Of a stretch of DNA of 24,594 bases, positions 1,553 to 15,144 are shown one piece after another. Source of the stretch: a virus. Lineage: Duplodnaviria; Heunggongvirae; Uroviricota; Caudoviricetes. The translations under genes and the position numbers were made by a program. Under the pieces are notes generated by a model. That model did no database searches. It saw nothing but the letters and a program-made list of their open reading frames with translations, and was not told where the DNA came from. The DNA is taken from IMG/VR virus record IMGVR_UViG_2609459839_000005, one strand, 5' to 3'. How positions within the stretch are numbered: position 1 is the stretch's first letter; every line of letters begins with the position of its first letter.

Positions 1553-1741
1553 TCACGAGGACTGAAGTTTCTCGCAATTAAAATTAATCAGTTTTACTTT
1601 CTGCTCTCTGGAAACGCCTGCTTCTTTTTTACCTGAGAGCATTTTTTCGCATTCTGATTTCGTTAGTTTAGATTTTGAATATCTTGTCCAGTTAGTAGGA
1701 GTGCCACCTTCCTTTTCAATAGTGGCGGTAATTTTATACAT
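1553..1741 (-). CDS. Hypothetical small protein (YdaC-like by position)
   Basis: Track ORF 1553..1813. Preferred start is ATG at 1741 (MYKITATIEKEGG...), 6 nt after GGAG and overlapping the stop of the upstream Lar-like gene. No recognisable motif. Confidence 0.4.
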   Translation of the reverse strand: MYKITATIEKEGGTPTNWTRYSKSKLTKSECEKMLSGKKEAGVSREQKVKLINFNCEKLQSS

Positions 1742-1943
1742 GAACATCTCCATTATTATTTCCAGTGGTTCGTTTATTCCATCTTTCGAGTGCTTCTTTT
1801 TCACTTCCACCATAACCGGTTCGGGATTCGCATGCGTTACACTTCGCTCGGTAATATCCTGAAATGGCTTTCACCGTTACTGATGGACAACCACAAAATG
1901 GACATGGTTTGACTTTTTCATACCGCATTGTCTTTTCTCTCAT
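1734..1943 (-). CDS. ralR: Lar/RalR-family restriction-alleviation protein (small Cys4 zinc-ribbon)
   Basis: Translation contains KPCPFCG...CNAC, a four-Cys zinc-ribbon typical of Lar. Lies between xis-like and recT-like genes as in Rac. True start may be the second ATG at 1928 (MRYEKVKP...). Confidence 0.72.
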   Translation of the reverse strand: MREKTMRYEKVKPCPFCGCPSVTVKAISGYYRAKCNACESRTGYGGSEKEALERWNKRTTGNNNGDVHV

Positions 1944-1991
1944 ATGATAAAATTTTGTGATGGCGGTGAGGCTACACCGCCAAAGTCAATA

Positions 1992-3095
1992 TTAGGATCC
2001 GATATATTCTGGTTTCATATCTGTCAGTGTCGTTTTATACGCCTCATATAATTCACCCAGATGTGGTCGAGCAGCATTCAGCGTATTTTCCAGAGCAGTA
2101 AATTTTTGTTCTGCTTCTGGATCACCTGATGAAGGCAGGTCATTTATCATCTTCTCGATACTGGCAATAGCATTGAGACGGTGATGACGCCGAACCACTT
2201 TTCCTTTAAGCTCGGCAAAGAATTCGCCGATCTGGTTTTTCTGATCCTCTATCTCTTGGCGTAATGCAGTGGTTTCCTCAGTCGTGGCCGCGCTTTCGAC
2301 ACGCTGCCGGAATTCATCAATCCACGCTTCGTCAATACGCTGTTCGATGGTTTCTGTTCGCTGCTCGCTTACCTCTCTATAATTCTGTACCGGCACAGGA
2401 TTGATGATTTTTTCCTGTGGCTCTTCCAGTTCGTCCGGGGTATACACGCCCAGGATGACGTCAGGACAATAAAGGCGAGCCCAGTATTTCAACGCCAGAT
2501 AGGCGAGCTGTTGTTTCGGGTTTGAGGTCCATAAAGGAGAATTACGCGTAATCACGCTGGAAAGAAACACCGGTTCTCCCCAGGTAATCTCACTTTCACC
2601 GCGAAGAACTGCACCAACTCGAACGGATAGACCATACTCATCTTCACTGGTCCAACATGGGATCGTTTCTTTTTTCTCATAGATTCCGCCTCCTTTGGCC
2701 GTTTTCTTAACGGTCTCCACTCGGGTGCGAGAGCATTTCTCCCAGTCTCCCTCGTACTTGTAATGGAAGCGGCCTACAATTGCACTTGAGCTAGAGATCA
2801 CAGCGTTAACAAGTTGTGCTTCATAACCCAGAACTCCGTTTACCAGGTGTGTTTTCTGAGCCACAGCGTAGGGGTTCATGCCCCATTGCATGGCTTGCAT
2901 GATGATTGCCATGCAGTCGGCAGGTTTTCCGCGAAGGTGATCGGGAACTGTGACGGTGGCCTGTGACATCAACCCGGCTACTTCCTGAAGTTGCGTCAAC
3001 GCCTGAACGTTAAAAATAGTGTTACTGGCAGAAATGGTATTTGGTGTCTGCTCTGTCGTGATGATATTGGTATTTTGCATGGTCAGGTTCTCCAT
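1992..3095 (-). CDS. recT: RecT/Bet-superfamily single-strand annealing protein, 367 aa
   Basis: Core resembles RecT/Bet annealing proteins (…CMAIIMQAMQWGMNPY…GVLGYEAQL…). Its ATG overlaps the stop of the upstream exonuclease gene (TAATG), typical of recE-recT coupling. Longer than K-12 RecT, with a C-terminal extension. Confidence 0.68.
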   Translation of the reverse strand: MENLTMQNTNIITTEQTPNTISASNTIFNVQALTQLQEVAGLMSQATVTVPDHLRGKPADCMAIIMQAMQWGMNPYAVAQKTHLVNGVLGYEAQLVNAVISSSSAIVGRFHYKYEGDWEKCSRTRVETVKKTAKGGGIYEKKETIPCWTSEDEYGLSVRVGAVLRGESEITWGEPVFLSSVITRNSPLWTSNPKQQLAYLALKYWARLYCPDVILGVYTPDELEEPQEKIINPVPVQNYREVSEQRTETIEQRIDEAWIDEFRQRVESAATTEETTALRQEIEDQKNQIGEFFAELKGKVVRRHHRLNAIASIEKMINDLPSSGDPEAEQKFTALENTLNAARPHLGELYEAYKTTLTDMKPEYIGS

Positions 3096-6000
3096 TAAGC
3101 CAGATGCAGTGCTTCAAGACGACGAAGATCAAAGTCGTTTAATTCGTCGGTATAACTTTCGGTAATCGGTGCTGGCCAGTTGTTTGTCTCTAGGGCTTCG
3201 TTTATCTGGCGTAGCGTCCGGCGATATTCCTGTCGACCAAGTTCCAGGAGTTCCTGCGAGGCTTCCACGACTGCCACCCAGTGATAGCCAACATCTTTGT
3301 TGACGAAGATCCAGAAAAATTTGTCCAGGTTTGCCACATCACAATACATTGCGGCGCTGAGGTGATAATCACGCTCAATAATTTCACGGTGCAGGCGATC
3401 TTTAAGTCGTTCCTGCCGCACATAACCGAGGCTGACTGACTTCACGTCAGCGCAAATGCTTTCGTATGGCAGCCGGATTTCGATATCAGGACGGACCCTG
3501 ATTTCCAGCCCGGTTTCTTCATCAAACCCGAAATAGCTGATTTCAGATTTGCGATCCGGGTGGTTGAGTAGCCTTGCTGCATCGGTATTGTTTTGCAGTG
3601 CCGCGTGAATATTTTTTGCCTGTTCATACATATCCGCACTGATAAACGTTTTCCCGGCGTTTTCTTCTTGCTGTCGTTTTTGCCAGTCCTCCAGTGTCAC
3701 CAGTTCCGGGCGAATTTTCCGTGCGATTTCGGTTAATTGCTCTTTTGTGCCACTGATGTTGTAAGGCAACGATTTAGCACGTTCTTTTTTTGCCAGTTCT
3801 GGATCTACAGTTTCAATTTGCTCCAGAAGCTGCTCCCGTGTTCCACTGGTTTTCAGCAGAGGAGGGAGGCTTGCGTTGTATTCTTTAATACAGGCTTTCA
3901 TTGCTGATGCTGTGTGTTTTTCCCCCTCAGGAATACGCCGAAATTCCTCCGGAAGCGAACCGTAAAGGATGCCTGTTTCTTCGGCCCCAGCGCTTACCGA
4001 CAGTGGCTGTATAAGAATGCTGTTGTAGCTTTCGATCCACTCTTTCATCTGCTCTGGTGTCATCAGTGATGGCAGACTGGCATTGTGTTTTTTAATGATG
4101 GTGATCAGTTCGTTAGAAGTAGTAACCACATATTCAGGAACCGGTACCGGAATGGCATATTCATCAGCGAATTTATCCGTTTCCAGAACATAGCTGTGAA
4201 TGATCCGCCCACGCAGCAATGCATCACTTTCCTCGTTCGGAATAGTCCCGGCAATGTGCCGCCCGTGGTAATACATCAGACTGATGCGGGCATCCTTCAG
4301 CATTGTGCTGCTTATTCCGTTGGCGGAGTGATAAACCTCGTTCGGGAGGTTTTCATAGCGGCCAGGCTCGAAATATGACGGCCACATGATTTCAGTTGCT
4401 ACATTAGCTGACGCTTCACCAGTTTCATCACTGCAATCGTGATGCGGATGGTTGCCAGCATTCTCCTTGTGTGGATGTTCAGCGCTTTCCATTTCCTCCG
4501 GATCATTTTCCTGAACTTCAACCTGATTCTCTTCATCGAATGTTTCCTGGTATGTTGCGTCGCCCATCACCGCACCACAATCAGGGCAGTTGCCGCCGTC
4601 GGTCTGACCGCAGGCGGCGCAGGCTTTTTCCGGCTCCTGTTGCGTTATTGGCTCGGATTGTTTCGTTTCTGGCTCGTTTTGTTGCGCATTTCGGCTGTTT
4701 TGTTCCGCTTTCTGGTCGTTCTGTTCCGTTTCTTGCTGGTTCTGATTCACTGAATCGCGGGTTTCAATCCCCTTCACCCATTTCGGATCGTTCGGGTCGC
4801 TAATTCCGTCAACAAATTCACCACGTGATGCAGCAAGTAATTTATCGGCATCGACAGGATTTTTTGATGGAATGTTTTTCCGGGCTTCATGGAGTTCTGC
4901 CCGCAGTTCCTGATATTTCGCATCAACAGAATTTACCTGTGACTGAGCATCCAGCGGCTGCGTGTCCTGATGATGTTCAGTTGCATTCGGTTCCACTGTT
5001 TCAGCCGTTGCCTGTTCATCTGCCATTGCGCCAGATGGTTGTGGTTTTTCTTCATCGTCCTGTTTTCCTTCTTCTGTCACACGCTGCGGCATCGGGGCAG
5101 AGGAGCGACCGCAGGCAATATCCACAATTTCCGGATCAGGGTTGGCATGATCAGTTTCAGTCAGTACTTTGTTCAGATATTCAGTGACGTGCGCGGGGAT
5201 GACCTCGATCCCAATTGGTGCTTCTTTCACGGACGCAACCACGGTGGCGCGGGAATAATCCAGCCCGCCAGGCATGGTGATGAATTTGTCGCGGAAAACA
5301 GAAAAGGGCGGTTTATTTTCAGCGATAATTTCCTCAATGCGTTTAGCGTGTGCCGGATGAAGGTTATAGATGTCCACGTCCATTGAACGGGCCAGTACGC
5401 CAGTGGCTACATCGCGTGCCAGTGACGTCAGATCGTGGACGAAACCTTCGCCGCGATCGGTGAGGTTCCCGCCGCCAGCATTAGCACCGGAAGCCGTGCG
5501 AGTGATGCGTGAAACACGATTCCCTTTCCTCCATTCTTTTGTCAGAAGACCACGATCAATGTGTTCGGTATCCAGCCAGGCTGAAATGAAATTCTTAAAT
5601 TCATAGGGCTGATGTTTTTTCGTGATAGAGAAAACTGCCTTAATTGCATCAGTCAGGCGGAGCAGGGCGGCATTATCCAGAGTTGTCGGTTCTGCCATGC
5701 CGCGTATGGCCAACAGCAGATTCTGGACATAGCTGTTTTCCTGGTCCATCTCAAGAGCAGTAATGTGTTCGCGTTGTTCACGGGTGGCATGATGCAGGTA
5801 TTTCCGATCCCCGGCCGCATACGTAAAAATGTGCAGAAGACGCTGTGTGAACCGCAAAGTGGCTACAGAAACTTCGCAATCCTGGCAATCCCCGTGGGCG
5901 TCTGCCTGCGCGTTTTCTTCCTGGCCTCCCGCCAGTTCTTTGGTTTCCTGGGTATTCTCCTGATGGTGAACGTCGTCTGGTGCTGCACCCGGTTTTAGTT

Positions 6001-6262
6001 CCCAGGTGATGGAGTCCTTGCCGAGTTGATAGCGTTCACACCACGTAAAATCGATCTCACCTTCAGGGGGAAGGTCATTAACGACAGGAAAATTAGTTGC
6101 AACAGTTTTAAAATAGTTGCTCAGTTTTTTACCTGACTTAACGATCAGGTAGTCCAGAGTGGCACTGGTCGATTCAAAATCGTCGCTTGCCCACAGGACG
6201 ACGTCAGGTTCACCGGATGATTTTTTCGCTTTCCGTAAAAGGAAGAGTGGTTTTGTGCTCAT
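3095..6262 (-). CDS. recE: RecE-like exodeoxyribonuclease VIII, 1055 aa, with acidic low-complexity central linker
   Basis: Large ORF ahead of the annealing-protein gene. C-terminal third looks like a PD-(D/E)xK-type exonuclease domain (…[11 protein letters not shown]…DVKSVS…). Central Q/E/D-rich segment holds a CAACG…CPDCG Cys4 cluster. Start at 6262 follows GAGG. Confidence 0.68.
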
Positions 6263-7103: not shown

Positions 7104-7511
7104 AATTATCTCCATTTTTACAAATGAATTTTGTCGATGCGGTGCCTGGTGCCTCCAGGTGACGTTAACCAGTTAACAATTAACGCCGGATAATCCACCC
7201 ATAACACTGATGCTTTTAACTGCGCCGCGTGCGCTTAGCCGCATTCACCGCATCACAAAATTCACTTTAAAAAGGGGCGGCAGGGCAGCTACGGAGTAGA
7301 ACTGGTGCCGCCAAAAACTAGACACAGCAATGTCGTTATTTACAACCGGAGGCGCACTCCCACCATTTAAATTTAACAGACAAGACCGACTCTTTATGGA
7401 TACCGGAAATGCGCCTTCGTATTGTGCCCGGTTTTATTTCACCACCTCCGGGCTTTGGTGGCCTCGGCTATACCCCTACAGCAAGAATATTGAATTAATC
7501 CAATAAATGGT

Positions 7512-8485: not shown

Positions 8486-9000
8486 ATGAACAAAATTTCA
8501 ACATATCGAAAACAGCTTGGGCTGTCTCAAAGACAACTTGCTGTTCAGTTACCACATCACGCAAAGTGGCTTCAACGCTGGCAATGGCAATCAGCAAAGG
8601 TCGTCTGATTCGCGTAAATCAGGGCGGTAAATTTCGTTACTGCATACCGGGCGATAATTTACCAGCAGAGCCGAAAGCAGCATCGGTAGCGGAAACTGAT
8701 GGTAAGGCCTTTCCTCAGCCCGCAGGTGTTGCATTACCAGTACAGGAGGCTGCAACACAGGAAGATATTAAAACAGAAACGGTGGTGGACATTGTGCAAT
8801 CGCTGCCATCGTTTACTGAAACGCGAGCGGATGACCTGGTTTTACCATCGCTGCATATGGCAAACCGCGAACTGCGTCGGGCGAAAAATCATGTCCAGAA
8901 GTGGGAGCGAGTCTGCGCCGCGCTGCGGGAGCTGAACAAGCACCGGGATATTGTTCGACAGATTGTCGATTCCTCCAGTCGTATTGTGTCGGAAAAGTGA
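8486..9000 (+). CDS. Cro/YdaS-like early gene with disrupted reading frame (possible pseudogene)
   Basis: ATG at 8486 with GGAGG 8 nt upstream opens [22 protein letters not shown]…, which stops after 40 codons (TGA 8606-8608). The long track ORF 8455..9000 is in a different frame and has no SD at its own ATG. Confidence 0.4.
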
Positions 9001-9015
9001 TTGCCGGAGGCACCT

Positions 9016-9438
9016 ATGGCAAAAGTATTTACACCAGAAGAGCGGGAAAAAATTAAAGGGCAGGTTGTTGAACTTGTACGTCTGAGCGGTCGCGAGACGT
9101 TACGGGCTCTGGAGGCTAAAACCGGTGCATCAAGGTATTACATAAGCACTCTCGCCAGAGAACTGGTCGCCAGTGGTGATGTTTACAATTCAGGCTACGG
9201 ATTATTCCCGTCTGAGCAGGCGCGTAAAGACTGGCAAAACGCCCGCAAAAAACTCTCAAGGGCAAATCTGAAGAAACCATCTGTGGTTGATCCGGATCTT
9301 ATCTGGTCATTACCAGACGGAGAAATACGCCGCTACAACAGGCGTCTGAACATAATTTGCCGTGAGTGCCGGAAGAGTGAGGTTATGCAGCGAGTGCTGG
9401 CGTTTTATCAGGGGAAATTTCAGGAGGTGATGCTGTGA
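9016..9438 (+). CDS. Hypothetical early protein, 140 aa (YdaT-like by size and position)
   Basis: ATG at 9016 (MAKVFTPEEREKIKG…) is preceded by GGAGG; track ORF starts at 9001. Position after the cro-like gene. Confidence 0.5.
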   Translation: MAKVFTPEEREKIKGQVVELVRLSGRETLRALEAKTGASRYYISTLARELVASGDVYNSGYGLFPSEQARKDWQNARKKLSRANLKKPSVVDPDLIWSLPDGEIRRYNRRLNIICRECRKSEVMQRVLAFYQGKFQEVML

Positions 9439-9689
9439 GCGAATCAAAATGTCAGGTTAATGGCAATCAGATAGAACCGTGTACGGCACTGGCAAAATCC
9501 CTTGAGCATGATGCTGAATACACGACGCGAAAAGGTCTGCTGATATACAAAATCTGGAATGAGAATTTAACTCGCGACCCTGATTTGGTGATGTTGCGTT
9601 CCGGTGAATTTTCTAAATTACCAGTGCGGGTTTCATTTTGTCCGTTCTGTGGTGAAAGTCTGAAAACGTGGGAGAACAGAAATGAATGA
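9435..9689 (+). CDS. Small Cys-motif protein (84 aa), putative zinc-ribbon
   Basis: GTG start overlapping the previous stop (GTGA), with CAGGAGG upstream. Contains KC…PC near the N-terminus and CPFCG near the C-terminus, the same motif as in the Lar-like protein. Confidence 0.45.
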   Translation: MSESKCQVNGNQIEPCTALAKSLEHDAEYTTRKGLLIYKIWNENLTRDPDLVMLRSGEFSKLPVRVSFCPFCGESLKTWENRNE

Positions 9690-9993
9690 AATTAGAGAAA
9701 TACCAGTAGTACGTGATGAATATGGCTGCTGGACGCATCCTGAATATGAAAAATTCTGTGATGGTAGAGAACTTATTTCAACGAAAGAGTTTAACGCCTG
9801 GATGGAGGAAAATAATCTTCAATACGTCCTCTGCTTCAGAGATGAAGGATGTGCTGACCTTGATGCGTGTGATGCTGATATTTCTGCATGGGAACCGGAA
9901 CGACCAGAGGGCAATGGATGGTTTATTGGTTCAATACATGACACCGAAGATGGCCCGGTTTGTGTATGGCTGAGAAATAAGGCCGAAGCATAA
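9682..9993 (+). CDS. Small strongly acidic hypothetical protein (103 aa)
   Basis: ATG overlaps the previous stop (ATGAATGA). About 24 Asp+Glu versus 9 Lys+Arg, plus scattered Cys. Confidence 0.5.
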   Translation: MNEIREIPVVRDEYGCWTHPEYEKFCDGRELISTKEFNAWMEENNLQYVLCFRDEGCADLDACDADISAWEPERPEGNGWFIGSIHDTEDGPVCVWLRNKAEA

Positions 9994-10298
9994 AGGCTAT
10001 AAACCGACTAACAACTAAATACTGAAGATTTAAATCAGAAACGATTTTTATTAAATCCTTAACCGGAGGGATTCTGCACCCTCAGAACATCAGGAGGCCG
10101 TCTGAAAGGGCGGAACAGATAATGCTTACGTTGAAACATTTTATCGACATACCAACATGGTTAGCCGTCATTGCTTTTGTTAAAATACACATCCACTTTT
10201 CTGTGCAATGTTTAACCACTGGTCATATCAAATGGCATTCATGCGAACCATGATATAGAATCATGGCTTGAGAGAGTCGATGAAAGCGCAACTATGGT

Positions 10299-10871
10299 AT
10301 GAGAGACATTGATGTAAGAAAGGCTGTGCATGCCAAGATTCTGAGAGATCATCATAAAGATCCTGACACCCTAATCATTGATGAGTTTACGATGAATCTA
10401 GGGGCTAGCAGAGCTGATATAGCAGTGATCAATGGGCTTATACATGGTTATGAGTTGAAGAGCAAGAGTGATAACTTGCTCAGATTACCAGCGCAGGTGC
10501 AACATTACTCATCAGTGATGGATAAAGTAACGTTGGTTGTCTCTGATTGCCATCTTTATGATGCTTTAAGCATAGTTCCATCATGGTGGGGGATAAAGCA
10601 AGTTACGCAAGGTGCACGGCAAGGTATCCATTTAAAAACAATTCGAACTAGCAAGTTGAATCCACAAGTGGACAAACTTTCCTTAACAATGCTTCTTTGG
10701 AAAGATGAATTGCTTTCCCTATTAAGTGATGTAGGGGAGCTACAGAATTTGAAAAATAAACCTAAACGCGTCTTATGGTCAAAACTCGCCAATAGTATGG
10801 ATGTTGGCGAGCTTCGTGAAGCTGTTCGAGTTAAACTTAAAGCCCGTAAAGAGTGGCGAGTTGCTCAATAA
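10299..10871 (+). CDS. PD-(D/E)xK-motif nuclease-like protein, 190 aa (first gene of candidate defence cassette)
   Basis: Translation has …IDEFTMNLGASRADIAVINGLIHGYELKSKSD…: Asp in a hydrophobic strand, then E-L-K about 12 residues later. AT-rich (about 35-40% GC in sampled 60-nt stretches). Weak SD, so the start is uncertain. Confidence 0.6.
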   Translation: MRDIDVRKAVHAKILRDHHKDPDTLIIDEFTMNLGASRADIAVINGLIHGYELKSKSDNLLRLPAQVQHYSSVMDKVTLVVSDCHLYDALSIVPSWWGIKQVTQGARQGIHLKTIRTSKLNPQVDKLSLTMLLWKDELLSLLSDVGELQNLKNKPKRVLWSKLANSMDVGELREAVRVKLKARKEWRVAQ

Positions 10872-11934
10872 CCTTAGTTATGTGATGGTTTTGCCCAATC
10901 CTACGCCATACCTCTGGGCTACCAAATTTATAGTTACCAGAGGGATTGGCTTTGTAGGCTTGATACTCGTTTGCATAATATTCTATGTCTCTATCTCCCG
11001 CACAGAATGTAGGCCCTGAATATTCTCGATGAGCAAGAATATCCTCACTATGTTTACCATATTGTTCATAACCAAAGCGATTAGCTACTCTTCCTCGAAA
11101 TACCCAAAAGTCATTATCTCCAGAGTATCTGACGCTGGCAGATACGCTAGGGAATCGCGTCGAAAGCCTATTAAAGTCGGGGTGCTGTACTCCATAATCA
11201 CTATAAATCACATTTCTGGCAAGTTCTTTTCTATTCATTAAACTCTGCCATAAAATCCACTCGATTCGAGGTTGAGAATATAGACCAACAGAAATATCAC
11301 TGAGATCTGTAGGAAATGAACCCCCAGAAAGAATCACTTTTCTGTATTCATTGAGGTGCGCCAGATTGTTTATCAATCCCATTGCCAAAGTATATAGTTC
11401 GCCGGAATTAAGTTTATCCTCGGTTAACTCATCTCTTAAGTCAATAATTATATCAATATTTGATAAAGGAATTCCCAGATGATTAATGTAATGCGTTATT
11501 AATTGTGGGTTAACCAGATCTAACGTGGTTAATCTCAAGCATATTTCATTCTGCATTAATTCATCAATCGCTCTTTTATAGTTAGATGGGCGAGTTGGTG
11601 AACTGACAGGAATAACTCTTATCCCCATATCTCTAACTTGATTAACCGCATTTATTATAGGGTAATGATCTTCAGGAGAAATAAAATGCTCTTCAATTAA
11701 TAATCCATCAATATAAACACCTTGCATATCTGAGCAAGATTTTGAGACTTTCTTTCCGAACTCTATAAGAGTCTCGTTATAACTCTTTAAGGCAATACCT
11801 GAATCAGGGTCAATTGGCACTGGTTCAATTTCGAGTAATGGCAAAATTTTTGATTTCTTTTCAATGGATAGCTGCGATAAAGCTGATAACTCAGAACGTT
11901 TCGCTTTCAGAATAGGAATATATGAAATTGTCAT
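10837..11934 (-). CDS. 365-aa partner protein of the cassette (possibly beta/sce7725-like family)
   Basis: Long clean AT-rich ORF (MTISYIPILKAKRSELSALSQL…) converging on the 190-aa gene, with 35 bp of 3' overlap. SD-like AAGG 7 nt ahead of the ATG. Family assignment is recollection only. Confidence 0.62.
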   Translation of the reverse strand: MTISYIPILKAKRSELSALSQLSIEKKSKILPLLEIEPVPIDPDSGIALKSYNETLIEFGKKVSKSCSDMQGVYIDGLLIEEHFISPEDHYPIINAVNQVRDMGIRVIPVSSPTRPSNYKRAIDELMQNEICLRLTTLDLVNPQLITHYINHLGIPLSNIDIIIDLRDELTEDKLNSGELYTLAMGLINNLAHLNEYRKVILSGGSFPTDLSDISVGLYSQPRIEWILWQSLMNRKELARNVIYSDYGVQHPDFNRLSTRFPSVSASVRYSGDNDFWVFRGRVANRFGYEQYGKHSEDILAHREYSGPTFCAGDRDIEYYANEYQAYKANPSGNYKFGSPEVWRRIGQNHHITKVIEQLATLYGL

Positions 11935-12286
11935 GTTAATACCTTATACAGAATCAATTAACAATTAATGGTTCTTCGGACATTGAAATTTATATCGCAA
12001 AAATTGGCAAACTCTCCTCGACTACTCACTTGTGGGTATCCTGGCGTAAAAGGAATGACTTGGCAATACCCGGTGTGATCATAAGTCATTGAAAATGATC
12101 ATTTTTATCAGTCTTTCTTCCATGATGAATGCTAATGCCATTTGATTTGTTGAGGTGAAAACTGTTAAAAATCAAAACGATGTAATTGAAATGAACGTTC
12201 GGTAGCATTCACGCTTTAAATGTTTCTTTTGTGCTGATTGGATGAATTTTGGTCACTTATGATGAGAGATGTTGCAGGAAAAGAAG

Positions 12287-12315
12287 TTGGCATTGATCTA
12301 TTGGATAGTTAGAAT
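12287..12315 (+). promoter_or_regulatory. Sigma70-type promoter candidate for the hok-family mRNA
   Basis: TTGGCA (12287-12292), 17-bp spacer, TAGAAT (12310-12315). Predicted transcript of about 415 nt to the terminator at about 12737, typical of hok mRNAs. Confidence 0.4.
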
Positions 12316-12490
12316 TGCTGCGGGTGCTTGAGGCTATCTGCCTCAGGCATGAACACCAAAAGGCAGATAGAGAAAAGCCCCAGTTAACATTACGCGTCCT
12401 GCAAGACGTTTAACATTAATCTGAGGCCATATCTATGCGACACATAGAGATTAGCCTCTTACGGACCGAAAGGTCAAGGAGAAGCAGGCT

Positions 12491-12646
12491 ATGAAGCAGC
12501 AAAAGGCGATGCTAATCGCCCTGATCGTCATCTGTTTAACCGTCATAGTGACGGCACTGGTAACGAGGAAAGACCTCTGCGAGGTACGAATCCGAACCGG
12601 CCAGACGGAGGTCGCTGTCTTCACAGCTTACGAACCTGAGGAGTAA
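12491..12646 (+). CDS. Hok/Gef-family type I toxin (51 aa, single TM segment)
   Basis: Not in the ORF track (below 60 aa). Hand translation: MKQQKAMLIALIVICLTVIVTALVTRKDLCEVRIRTGQTEVAVFTAYEPEE, with the Hok/Gef signature LVTRKDLCEV…RTGQ…EVAVF…AYE. AAGGAG lies 8-13 nt upstream. Confidence 0.82.
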   Translation: MKQQKAMLIALIVICLTVIVTALVTRKDLCEVRIRTGQTEVAVFTAYEPEE

Positions 12647-12713
12647 GAGACCAGGCGAGGGAGAAATCCCTCGCCACCTCTCATGTGTCAGGCATCCTCA
12701 ACGCACCCGCACT

Positions 12714-12737
12714 AAACCCGCTTCGGCGGGTTTTTTG
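12714..12737 (+). terminator. Rho-independent terminator of the hok-family transcript
   Basis: AAACCCGC-ttcg-GCGGGTTTTTT: GC-rich stem, tetraloop and T-run, about 70 nt past the hok stop. Confidence 0.65.
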
Positions 12738-14990: not shown

Positions 14991-15066
<76 letters not shown>

Positions 15067-15069
15067 TAT

Positions 15070-15144
<75 letters not shown>

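What the first reader, a model, noticed from the sequence alone, without database searches (positions are those of the whole stretch)
9435..9993. Overlapping pair of small early genes: CPFCG zinc-ribbon protein plus a strongly acidic protein
These genes occupy the position of the missing replication genes. The first shares the CPFCG motif with the Lar anti-restriction protein. The second carries roughly 24 acidic versus 9 basic residues (hand count), a composition reminiscent of DNA-mimic anti-restriction or anti-defence proteins. Both starts overlap the preceding stops, which suggests co-translation.
Basis: inference. Interest (0 to 1): 0.4.

Follow-up and report, generated by a model that had tools for sequence, protein, structure and literature searches.

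The report
Two small accessory genes in Rac-like prophage
Two small overlapping early genes of a defective Rac-like E. coli prophage are real: one encodes an uncharacterised four-cysteine protein unrelated to Lar, and the other belongs to a widespread, very acidic phage protein family, one member of which is known to set off the Gop-beta-cII suicide defence.

Summary
orf84 (9435-9689) and orf103 (9682-9993) are real genes under purifying selection, and each start overlaps the preceding stop. orf103 has exactly 24 acidic and 9 basic residues (pI 4.24).

The window is a Rac-like E. coli prophage that lost about 3.15 kb (cro 3' end through O/P). The two genes sit in their normal place downstream of DUF1627-DUF977. 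They do not replace the replication genes.

orf84 shares only the CPFCG knuckle with Lar. It belongs to an unannotated family (phrog_4030) with four invariant cysteines.

orf103 belongs to phrog_1372, a large family that is acidic throughout and has no known fold. It is 43% identical to mEp213 orf184, which Silas et al. showed triggers cell death through the P4 gop-beta-cII abortive-infection system.

In this window orf103 lies 306 bp upstream of a distant beta/cII-like pair that lacks gop.

The two genes reassort independently, so they are not a module. An anti-defence role is plausible by association but unproven. A DNA-mimic mechanism fits the charge only.

The parts
9422..9427 (+). Shine-Dalgarno AGGAGG for orf84
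   Evidence: Read from the sequence; 7 nt upstream of GTG 9435.
9435..9689 (+). orf84: 84-aa protein with four conserved cysteines (C6, C16, C69, C72; CPFCG at 69-73). Member of phrog_4030 and identical to WP_000004329.1.
   Evidence: ORF. phrog_4030 E 3.2e-39. Invariant C6, C16, C69, C72, K33, G34, S56, G57 and W79 in 45 diverse homologues. dN/dS 0.26. No Pfam, NCBIfam or PADLOC family.
9670..9674 (+). Shine-Dalgarno-like GGGAG for orf103, inside the 3' end of orf84
   Evidence: Read from the sequence; 7 nt upstream of ATG 9682.
9682..9993 (+). orf103: 103-aa acidic protein (pI 4.24). Member of phrog_1372, the mEp213 orf184 family, and identical to WP_001353219.1.
   Evidence: phrog_1372 E 1.4e-54. 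43% identity to orf184, E 1e-28. AF2 pLDDT 82.9. Invariant R11, G15, W17, H19, E36, W70, P72, W80, F81, S84, I85, H86, G91 and W96. dN/dS 0.19.
9001..9438 (+). Context: upstream DUF977 gene (LygF; Ren-like phrog_142). Its stop overlaps the orf84 start.
   Evidence: PF06163 E 1.4e-27. phrog_142 E 1.8e-45.
10299..10871 (+). Context: cII-like sce7726-family gene, 306 bp downstream of orf103
   Evidence: NF033832 E 1.6e-56. PADLOC 'cll' E 2.4e-28. 28% identity to P4 cII.
10837..11934 (-). Context: Beta-protein gene, convergent with the cII-like gene as in P4; no gop present
   Evidence: PF14350 E 3.2e-52. PD-Lambda-2_C E 1.7e-41. 23% identity to P4 beta. No Gop in any of six frames.

Best explanation
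These are two independent accessory genes of the delayed-early rightward (pR-type) operon of a Rac-like lambdoid prophage. They are translated by coupling to the upstream DUF977 gene. They are not a two-part system.

orf103 is a member of the orf184 / phrog_1372 family. This is a small alpha/beta domain with a strongly conserved motif, RDxxGxWTHP ... WxPxxPxGxGWF[IV]GSIHDTEDGP, and a net negative charge that is conserved across the family. The most likely role is a stoichiometric binder or inhibitor of a host or defence protein, that is, a counter-defence-type accessory protein. Gop-beta-cII-type abortive-infection systems in turn recognise at least one member of the family.

orf84 is a small protein of an unannotated family with four invariant cysteines. 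It most likely binds one structural zinc ion and acts as a separate small binding factor. It is not a Lar homologue.

Shown here: gene reality, family membership, conserved acidity, lack of obligate linkage, and (from the literature) the trigger activity of a homologue.

Inferred: the counter-defence role, the binding mechanism, zinc binding, and translational coupling.
For: Genes are real and coupled: start/stop overlaps and Shine-Dalgarno sites; dN/dS 0.19 and 0.26.

orf103 family:
- phrog_1372 E 1.4e-54.
- 977 clusters at 50% identity with E<=1e-3.
- 43% identity to orf184 over the full length.
- Silas et al. (bioRxiv 10.1101/2023.04.06.535777) found that orf184 triggers Gop-beta-cII cell death in ECOR59 and in a reconstituted lab strain. 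Suppressor insertions mapped to beta and gop. orf184 shares an accessory region with ral.
- In mEp213 the gene lies directly after N on the pL side.
- Acidity is conserved: median pI 4.22 in 142 members. Charge density is -0.146 per residue, between Arn (-0.098) and Ocr (-0.239).
- The domain occurs fused to Lar (3 proteins), Tad2-like (1), Rv2179c-like exonuclease (2), DHHA1, KTSC and HTH domains. One Lar fusion is a single ORF on an assembled contig.

Independence of the two genes:
- 0 of 32 loci in other species carry orf84 near orf103.
- 66 of 80 close relatives have the pair and 13 lack orf103.
- orf84 homologues occur in Mu-like, P22-like and Yersinia prophage early regions without orf103 or DUF977.
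- Many O157:H7 genomes have orf103 alone.

orf84 cysteines are invariant in 45 sequences down to 34% identity.
Against: - orf103 is only 43% identical to orf184 and has a shorter acidic loop, so trigger activity may not transfer.
- The ECOR59 system is P4-type, and the window's beta is only 23% identical to P4 beta.
- Domain fusions in phage accessory cassettes may reflect mere adjacency of overlapping small genes rather than shared function.
- The orf84 structure model is poor (pLDDT 62.6), so the zinc site is unverified.
- There is no match to any PADLOC model, and no anti-defence database was available.
Confidence: 0.55

Rival explanations
1. One reading: the two proteins work together as an anti-restriction pair. 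orf84 is a Lar-like zinc-ribbon restriction alleviator, and orf103 is a DNA mimic that blocks restriction or another DNA-targeting defence.
For: The literal CPFCG motif is shared with the window's own Lar. orf103's charge density lies between those of the DNA mimics Arn and Ocr. Acidity is conserved across the family. Lar domains are fused to the orf103 domain in three protein clusters. The two genes are coupled in this window.
Confidence: 0.12
2. orf103 is an adaptor domain for phage DNA or nucleotide metabolism. It would bind a host replication or repair hub and recruit partner enzymes, with the stand-alone form acting as a regulator after the replication genes.
For: It lies downstream of O/P-DUF1627-DUF977 in intact relatives. 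It is fused to a 3'-5' exoribonuclease-like domain, a DHHA1 phosphoesterase and many other small phage domains.
Against: In mEp213 it sits in the pL 'ral slot', far from the replication genes. Its neighbours differ in almost every genus. The partner domains are too heterogeneous for one pathway. The only experimental phenotype known is activation of an abortive-infection system.
Confidence: 0.15
3. orf103 is functionally tied to the adjacent beta/cII-like pair, for example as the cognate trigger, decoy or regulator of a gop-less exclusion module carried by this prophage lineage.
For: A homologue triggers Gop-beta-cII. orf103 is 306 bp upstream of a cII-like gene and a convergent Beta gene. In IMG/VR relatives the pair occurs only next to this loop allele of orf103: 19-20 loci have it, against 0 of 27 for other alleles.
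Against: 0 of 32 loci in other species and only 20 of 80 close relatives have the pair nearby. The allele association is what simple linkage would give. There is no Gop toxin anywhere in the window. In Rac-SA53 an IS1 separates the genes.
Confidence: 0.08

Closest known systems
orf184 of phage mEp213 (AFM76385.1 / YP_007112388.1; phrog_1372), the trigger of Gop-beta-cII cell death in Silas et al. 2023 (bioRxiv 10.1101/2023.04.06.535777)
   Same: Same family and full-length alignment: 43% identity, E 1e-28. Same invariant WF[IV]GSIHDTEDGP motif, same size and same acidity (pI 4.09 versus 4.24). Both are early accessory genes of lambdoid phages.
   Different: orf103 has a shorter central acidic loop. 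It lies in the pR/nin-side operon rather than the pL 'ral slot'. Its trigger activity is untested. The native function of the family is unknown.
Lar / RalR restriction-alleviation protein (PF14354), present in this window at 1734-1943 (-)
   Same: orf84 shares the literal CPFCG zinc-knuckle motif. Both are small cysteine-rich prophage accessory proteins.
   Different: The motif is C-terminal in orf84 and N-terminal in Lar. orf84 has no second CxxC; it has C6-x9-C16 instead. There is no PF14354 hit. hhalign gives 42% probability over 17 columns.
DNA-mimic anti-restriction proteins (T7 Ocr, T4 Arn, ArdA)
   Same: Small, early-expressed and strongly acidic. orf103 is at -0.146 charge per residue, Arn at -0.098 and Ocr at -0.239.
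   Different: No sequence or fold similarity to any PDB entry. The acidic middle segment is a variable loop, not a rigid array of charges. No activity data exist.
P4 gop-beta-cII abortive-infection system (context genes 10299-11934)
   Same: The window has a cII-like sce7726 protein and a Beta protein in the same convergent arrangement as P4 beta/cII.
   Different: There is no gop. Identity to the P4 proteins is only 23-28%. The Beta protein is closer to PD-Lambda-2_C. The pair sits in a lambdoid prophage, not in the P4 hotspot.

Membership tests
orf184 / phrog_1372 family (orf103) | Significant full-length match to the family profile | tested here: met
   phrog_1372 E 1.4e-54, residues 1-102.
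orf184 / phrog_1372 family (orf103) | Direct similarity to the experimentally studied member, orf184 | tested here: met
   BLASTP 43% identity over 106 columns, E 1e-28. tblastn to mEp213 E 3e-19.
orf184 / phrog_1372 family (orf103) | Triggers Gop-beta-cII toxicity | not testable with these tools
   Known only for orf184; needs an expression assay.
Lar restriction alleviation (PF14354) (orf84) | Match to the Lar profile at or near the gathering score | tested here: not met
   No PF14354 hit at E<=1. The window's own Lar scores 53.7 bits against a cut-off of 28.6.
Lar restriction alleviation (PF14354) (orf84) | N-terminal CPxCG, then a second CxxC about 18-35 residues later, then a C-terminal WNxR | tested here: not met
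   orf84 has C6-x9-C16 near the N-terminus and CPFCG at 69-73. hhalign against a Lar alignment gives 42% probability over 17 columns.
Zinc ribbon / Cys4 zinc-binding protein (orf84) | Four conserved metal-ligand cysteines | tested here: met
   C6, C16, C69 and C72 are invariant in 45 homologues at 34-92% identity.
Zinc ribbon / Cys4 zinc-binding protein (orf84) | Two beta-hairpin knuckles brought together in a confident 3D model or a match to a solved ribbon | tested here: inconclusive
DNA-mimic anti-restriction proteins (orf103) | High net negative charge | tested here: met
   24 acidic versus 9 basic residues, pI 4.24. Conserved in the family. Comparable to Arn and Ocr.
DNA-mimic anti-restriction proteins (orf103) | Fold or sequence similarity to a known mimic (Ocr, ArdA, Arn and others) | tested here: not met
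DNA-mimic anti-restriction proteins (orf103) | Binds and inhibits a DNA-binding enzyme | not testable with these tools
   Requires biochemistry or efficiency-of-plating assays.
Gop-beta-cII system (neighbouring genes) | Presence of gop, beta and cII | tested here: not met
   cII-like and Beta are present. Gop is absent from all six frames of the window.

The most novel reading that the evidence does not exclude
The orf103 / orf184 domain is a new, very widespread class of acidic phage counter-defence module with a fold not seen in the PDB. It may act as a nucleic-acid or phosphate mimic through its invariant acidic hairpin tip, SIHDTEDG. Rac-type prophages place it directly beside a gop-less beta/cII-like sensor pair, forming a trigger-and-sensor cassette. 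Such a cassette could discriminate the resident phage's allele from those of superinfecting phages.
Probability: 0.1. Interest if true: 0.75.

Novelty: new member of a known kind. Interest (0 to 1): 0.4.

Why it matters
The orf184 family is one of the few phage proteins known to set off a specific abortive-infection system, yet what it does for the phage is unknown.

This analysis adds four points:
- The family is large: 977 clusters at 50% identity, spread across Proteobacteria phages.
- It is uniformly acidic and has no match among solved folds.
- Its domain is repeatedly fused to Lar, Tad2-like and nuclease domains.
- In Rac-like prophages it lies next to a divergent beta/cII pair without gop.

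Together these give concrete handles for testing what Gop-beta-cII-type systems sense. The analysis also removes a false lead, the supposed kinship of orf84 with Lar. Otherwise the pair is ordinary lambdoid accessory cargo.

Tried and rejected
- Lar homology for orf84: rejected.
- Gop homology for orf84: hhalign probability 0.05%.
- Pfam, NCBIfam and PADLOC scans of both proteins gave nothing significant.
- PDB sequence searches gave only marginal hits: an Agenet domain at E 0.2 for orf103, and RpoM-2 at E 0.003 rising to 0.09 with the broader profile for orf84.
- Rfam and promoter/terminator scans found no RNA gene or signal inside 9435-10298.
- Conserved two-gene module: rejected by neighbourhood analysis.
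- Literature searches by accession, PHROG id, DUF names and sequence motifs in main texts found nothing on these proteins. The link to orf184 came only from a motif search in the supplementary tables of Silas et al..
- The Iyer et al. and Pas-sRNA papers proved irrelevant.

Full report
**What the window is.** The window is a Rac-like lambdoid prophage of E. coli. It corresponds to IMG/VR contig IMGVR_UViG_2617270987_000005. Its left end carries intR, xisR, DUF1187, Lar/RalR, recT and recE. It is 99.9% identical over 8550-12731 to a prophage next to ttcA in strain E275a.

In intact relatives (strain 214-4 and phage Rac-SA53) the rightward early operon reads: cro-like, YdaT, one or two small ORFs, DnaT-like O, P, DUF1627, DUF977 (LygF), orf84 (rac21), orf103 (rac22). 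A cII-like sce7726 gene, a convergent Beta-protein gene and hok/sok follow.

**The missing replication genes.** The left side of position ~8550 matches the cI/cro immunity region of many genomes, and the right side matches the interior of DUF1627. No complete E. coli genome spans the junction. Strain 214-4 has about 3.15 kb more at this point. So the replication genes are missing because of a deletion. orf84 and orf103 are in their usual place, not in the place of the replication genes.

**The observation.**
- orf84 runs from 9435 to 9689. It starts with GTG, which overlaps the TGA stop of DUF977 in the sequence GTGA. An AGGAGG lies 7 nt upstream.
- orf103 runs from 9682 to 9993. Its ATG lies 8 nt before the end of orf84, with GGGAG 7 nt upstream.
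- The hand count for orf103 was exact: 24 acidic and 9 basic residues, pI 4.24, charge about -15. orf84 has four cysteines, with CPFCG at residues 69-73.
- Both match RefSeq CDSs, both have large homologue families, and both are under purifying selection. Median dN/dS is 0.19 and 0.26 among 29 and 27 E. coli alleles.
- No RNA family, promoter or terminator interrupts them. Expression by read-through of the early operon with translational coupling is the simplest reading, but it is an inference.

**orf84.**
- Only PHROGs recognises it: phrog_4030, function unknown.
- A broad alignment of 45 homologues from Escherichia, Salmonella, Citrobacter, Yersinia, Kosakonia, Enterobacter and Lelliottia (34-92% identity) has invariant C6, C16, C69, P70, F71, C72 and G73. 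K33, G34, S56, G57 and W79 are also invariant. This supports a Cys4 metal site.
- The window encodes a true Lar at 1734-1943 (-), with PF14354 E 2.6e-14. orf84 shares with it only the knuckle: a 9-residue BLASTP match, hhalign probability 42% over 17 columns, and no PF14354 hit. The cysteine layout also differs.
- Weak Pfam and PDB hits (DUF6980, DUF7835, UPF0547, RpoM-2) all centre on CPxCG.

**orf103.**
- It matches phrog_1372 at E 1.4e-54.
- Forty diverse homologues share invariant V9, R11, G15, W17, H19, E36, W70, P72, W80, F81, S84, I85, H86, G91 and W96. D12, D66, D87, E89, D90 and R98 are nearly invariant. Apart from C94, its cysteines are not conserved, so it is not a zinc protein.
- The AF2 model (pLDDT 82.9) has two helices and a three-stranded sheet. 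Residues 56-63, inside the variable acidic segment, have pLDDT below 50. The invariant SIHDTEDG lies at the tip of the last hairpin.
- A full profile search finds 977 clusters at 50% identity.
- Homologues occur in lambdoid, P1-like, N15-like, Burkholderia, Pseudomonas, Vibrio and Acinetobacter phages. Nearly all are annotated as hypothetical.
- Acidity is a family trait: 142 stand-alone members have median pI 4.22 and median net charge -16.
- Sixty-five of the 147 newly listed representatives are 180 aa or longer. They carry the domain fused to other modules: Lar (3), Rv2179c-like exoribonuclease (2), Tad2-like, KTSC, DHHA1 and HTH_24 (1 each). Many partners are unannotated phage domains, and one protein has a tandem duplication of the domain. 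One Lar fusion is a single ORF on an assembled contig.

**The literature link.** A motif search in the supplementary tables of Silas et al. (bioRxiv 10.1101/2023.04.06.535777) found their orf184, which is AFM76385.1 of phage mEp213. It aligns with orf103 over its full length at 43% identity, E 1e-28.

Rousset et al. (PMC9122126) showed that gop-beta-cII protects against lambda and P1.

So orf103 belongs to a family with one experimentally documented phenotype, that of a defence trigger. This is the behaviour seen for several counter-defence proteins. The family's native function remains unknown.

**The two genes are not a module.**
- None of 32 loci with an orf103 homologue in other species has an orf84 homologue within 5 kb. 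Their neighbours differ almost everywhere.
- Among 80 IMG/VR contigs with close orf84 relatives, 66 have orf103 adjacent and 13 do not.
- Distant orf84 homologues sit in a Mu-like semi-essential early region, a P22-like pL operon and a Yersinia prophage. None of these has orf103 or DUF977 nearby.
- Among 5426 complete E. coli genomes, 252 carry the pair and 892 carry at least part of it. Many O157:H7 strains have orf103 only.

**The neighbouring beta/cII-like pair.** orf103 lies 306 bp upstream of a cII-like sce7726 gene (PADLOC 'cll' E 2.4e-28; 28% identical to P4 cII). A convergent Beta-protein gene follows (23% identical to P4 beta, and closer to PD-Lambda-2_C). The orientation is the same as beta/cII in P4. 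There is no gop anywhere in the window.

This adjacency is found in 20 of 80 close relatives and in none of the 32 loci from other species. It occurs only with this loop allele of orf103, which simple linkage would explain. It is intriguing given the orf184 result, but it is not evidence of a functional unit.

**Mechanism and confidence.** The most likely reading is that orf103 is a small acidic binder or inhibitor of a host or defence protein, which Gop-beta-cII-type systems can sense. orf84 is most likely a separate small zinc-binding accessory factor.

- Family membership of orf103 is near certain.
- A counter-defence role is plausible, roughly 0.4.
- A true DNA-mimic mechanism rests only on charge. 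Its charge density lies between Arn and Ocr, and no fold evidence supports it.

Overall this is a new member of a recently flagged but mechanistically unknown family, paired by chance of phage mosaicism with an orphan Cys4 protein.

Noticed in passing
window 10299-11934: A cII-like sce7726 gene (+) and a convergent Beta-protein gene (-) overlap by 35 nt. This is a distant, gop-less relative of the P4 gop-beta-cII defence locus; the Beta protein is closer to PD-Lambda-2_C. It lies directly downstream of a homologue of the known Gop-beta-cII trigger.
   Followed up: partly
window ~8486-8551: Deletion junction. The 5' end of a cro-like HTH gene is joined to the interior of DUF1627. About 3.15 kb is lost: the cro 3' end, ydaT, two small ORFs, DnaT-like O and P. 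No complete E. coli genome shares this junction, so this prophage copy is replication-defective.
   Followed up: yes
window 1557-1943: A complete RalR (Lar) / RalA type I toxin-antitoxin pair: Lar at 1734-1943 (-), PF14354; RalA sRNA at 1557-1735 (+), Rfam 223.8 bits.
   Followed up: partly
window 7275-7326 (-), 12322-12646, 14991-15141: A DicF sRNA, a sok/hokD type I toxin-antitoxin locus and two tRNA genes are present (Rfam gathering-score matches).
   Followed up: no
window 1935-4414: The recT-like gene (1992-3095, -) and the 3' part of the 1055-aa recE (3095-6262, -) have no nucleotide similarity to the otherwise very similar prophage L001. This indicates a swapped recombination-module allele.
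   Followed up: no
proteins P0263, P0308, P0384, P0343, P0297, P0320/P0321, P0301, P0258: The orf103 domain occurs fused to Lar, Tad2-like, Rv2179c-like exonuclease and DHHA1 domains, and as a tandem duplication. About ten representatives are fused to an unannotated 'EHDDEH...WKP..RRDLVKAGAL.AEIERLDR' domain that matches only PHROGs of unknown function.
   Followed up: partly
L055, L069, L085, L105, L115 (IMG/VR relatives): Where orf103 is absent, orf84 is followed instead by Ead/Ea22-like or other small ORFs, and its C-terminus changes (…KTWKKETTSEQD). This points to a recombination breakpoint at the 3' end of orf84.
   Followed up: partly
L035 (phage Rac-SA53) 6462-7227: In the inducible phage Rac-SA53 an IS1 is inserted between rac22 (the orf103 homologue) and the cII-like gene. 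The target duplication AAACATTT corresponds to about window 10131-10138.
   Followed up: no
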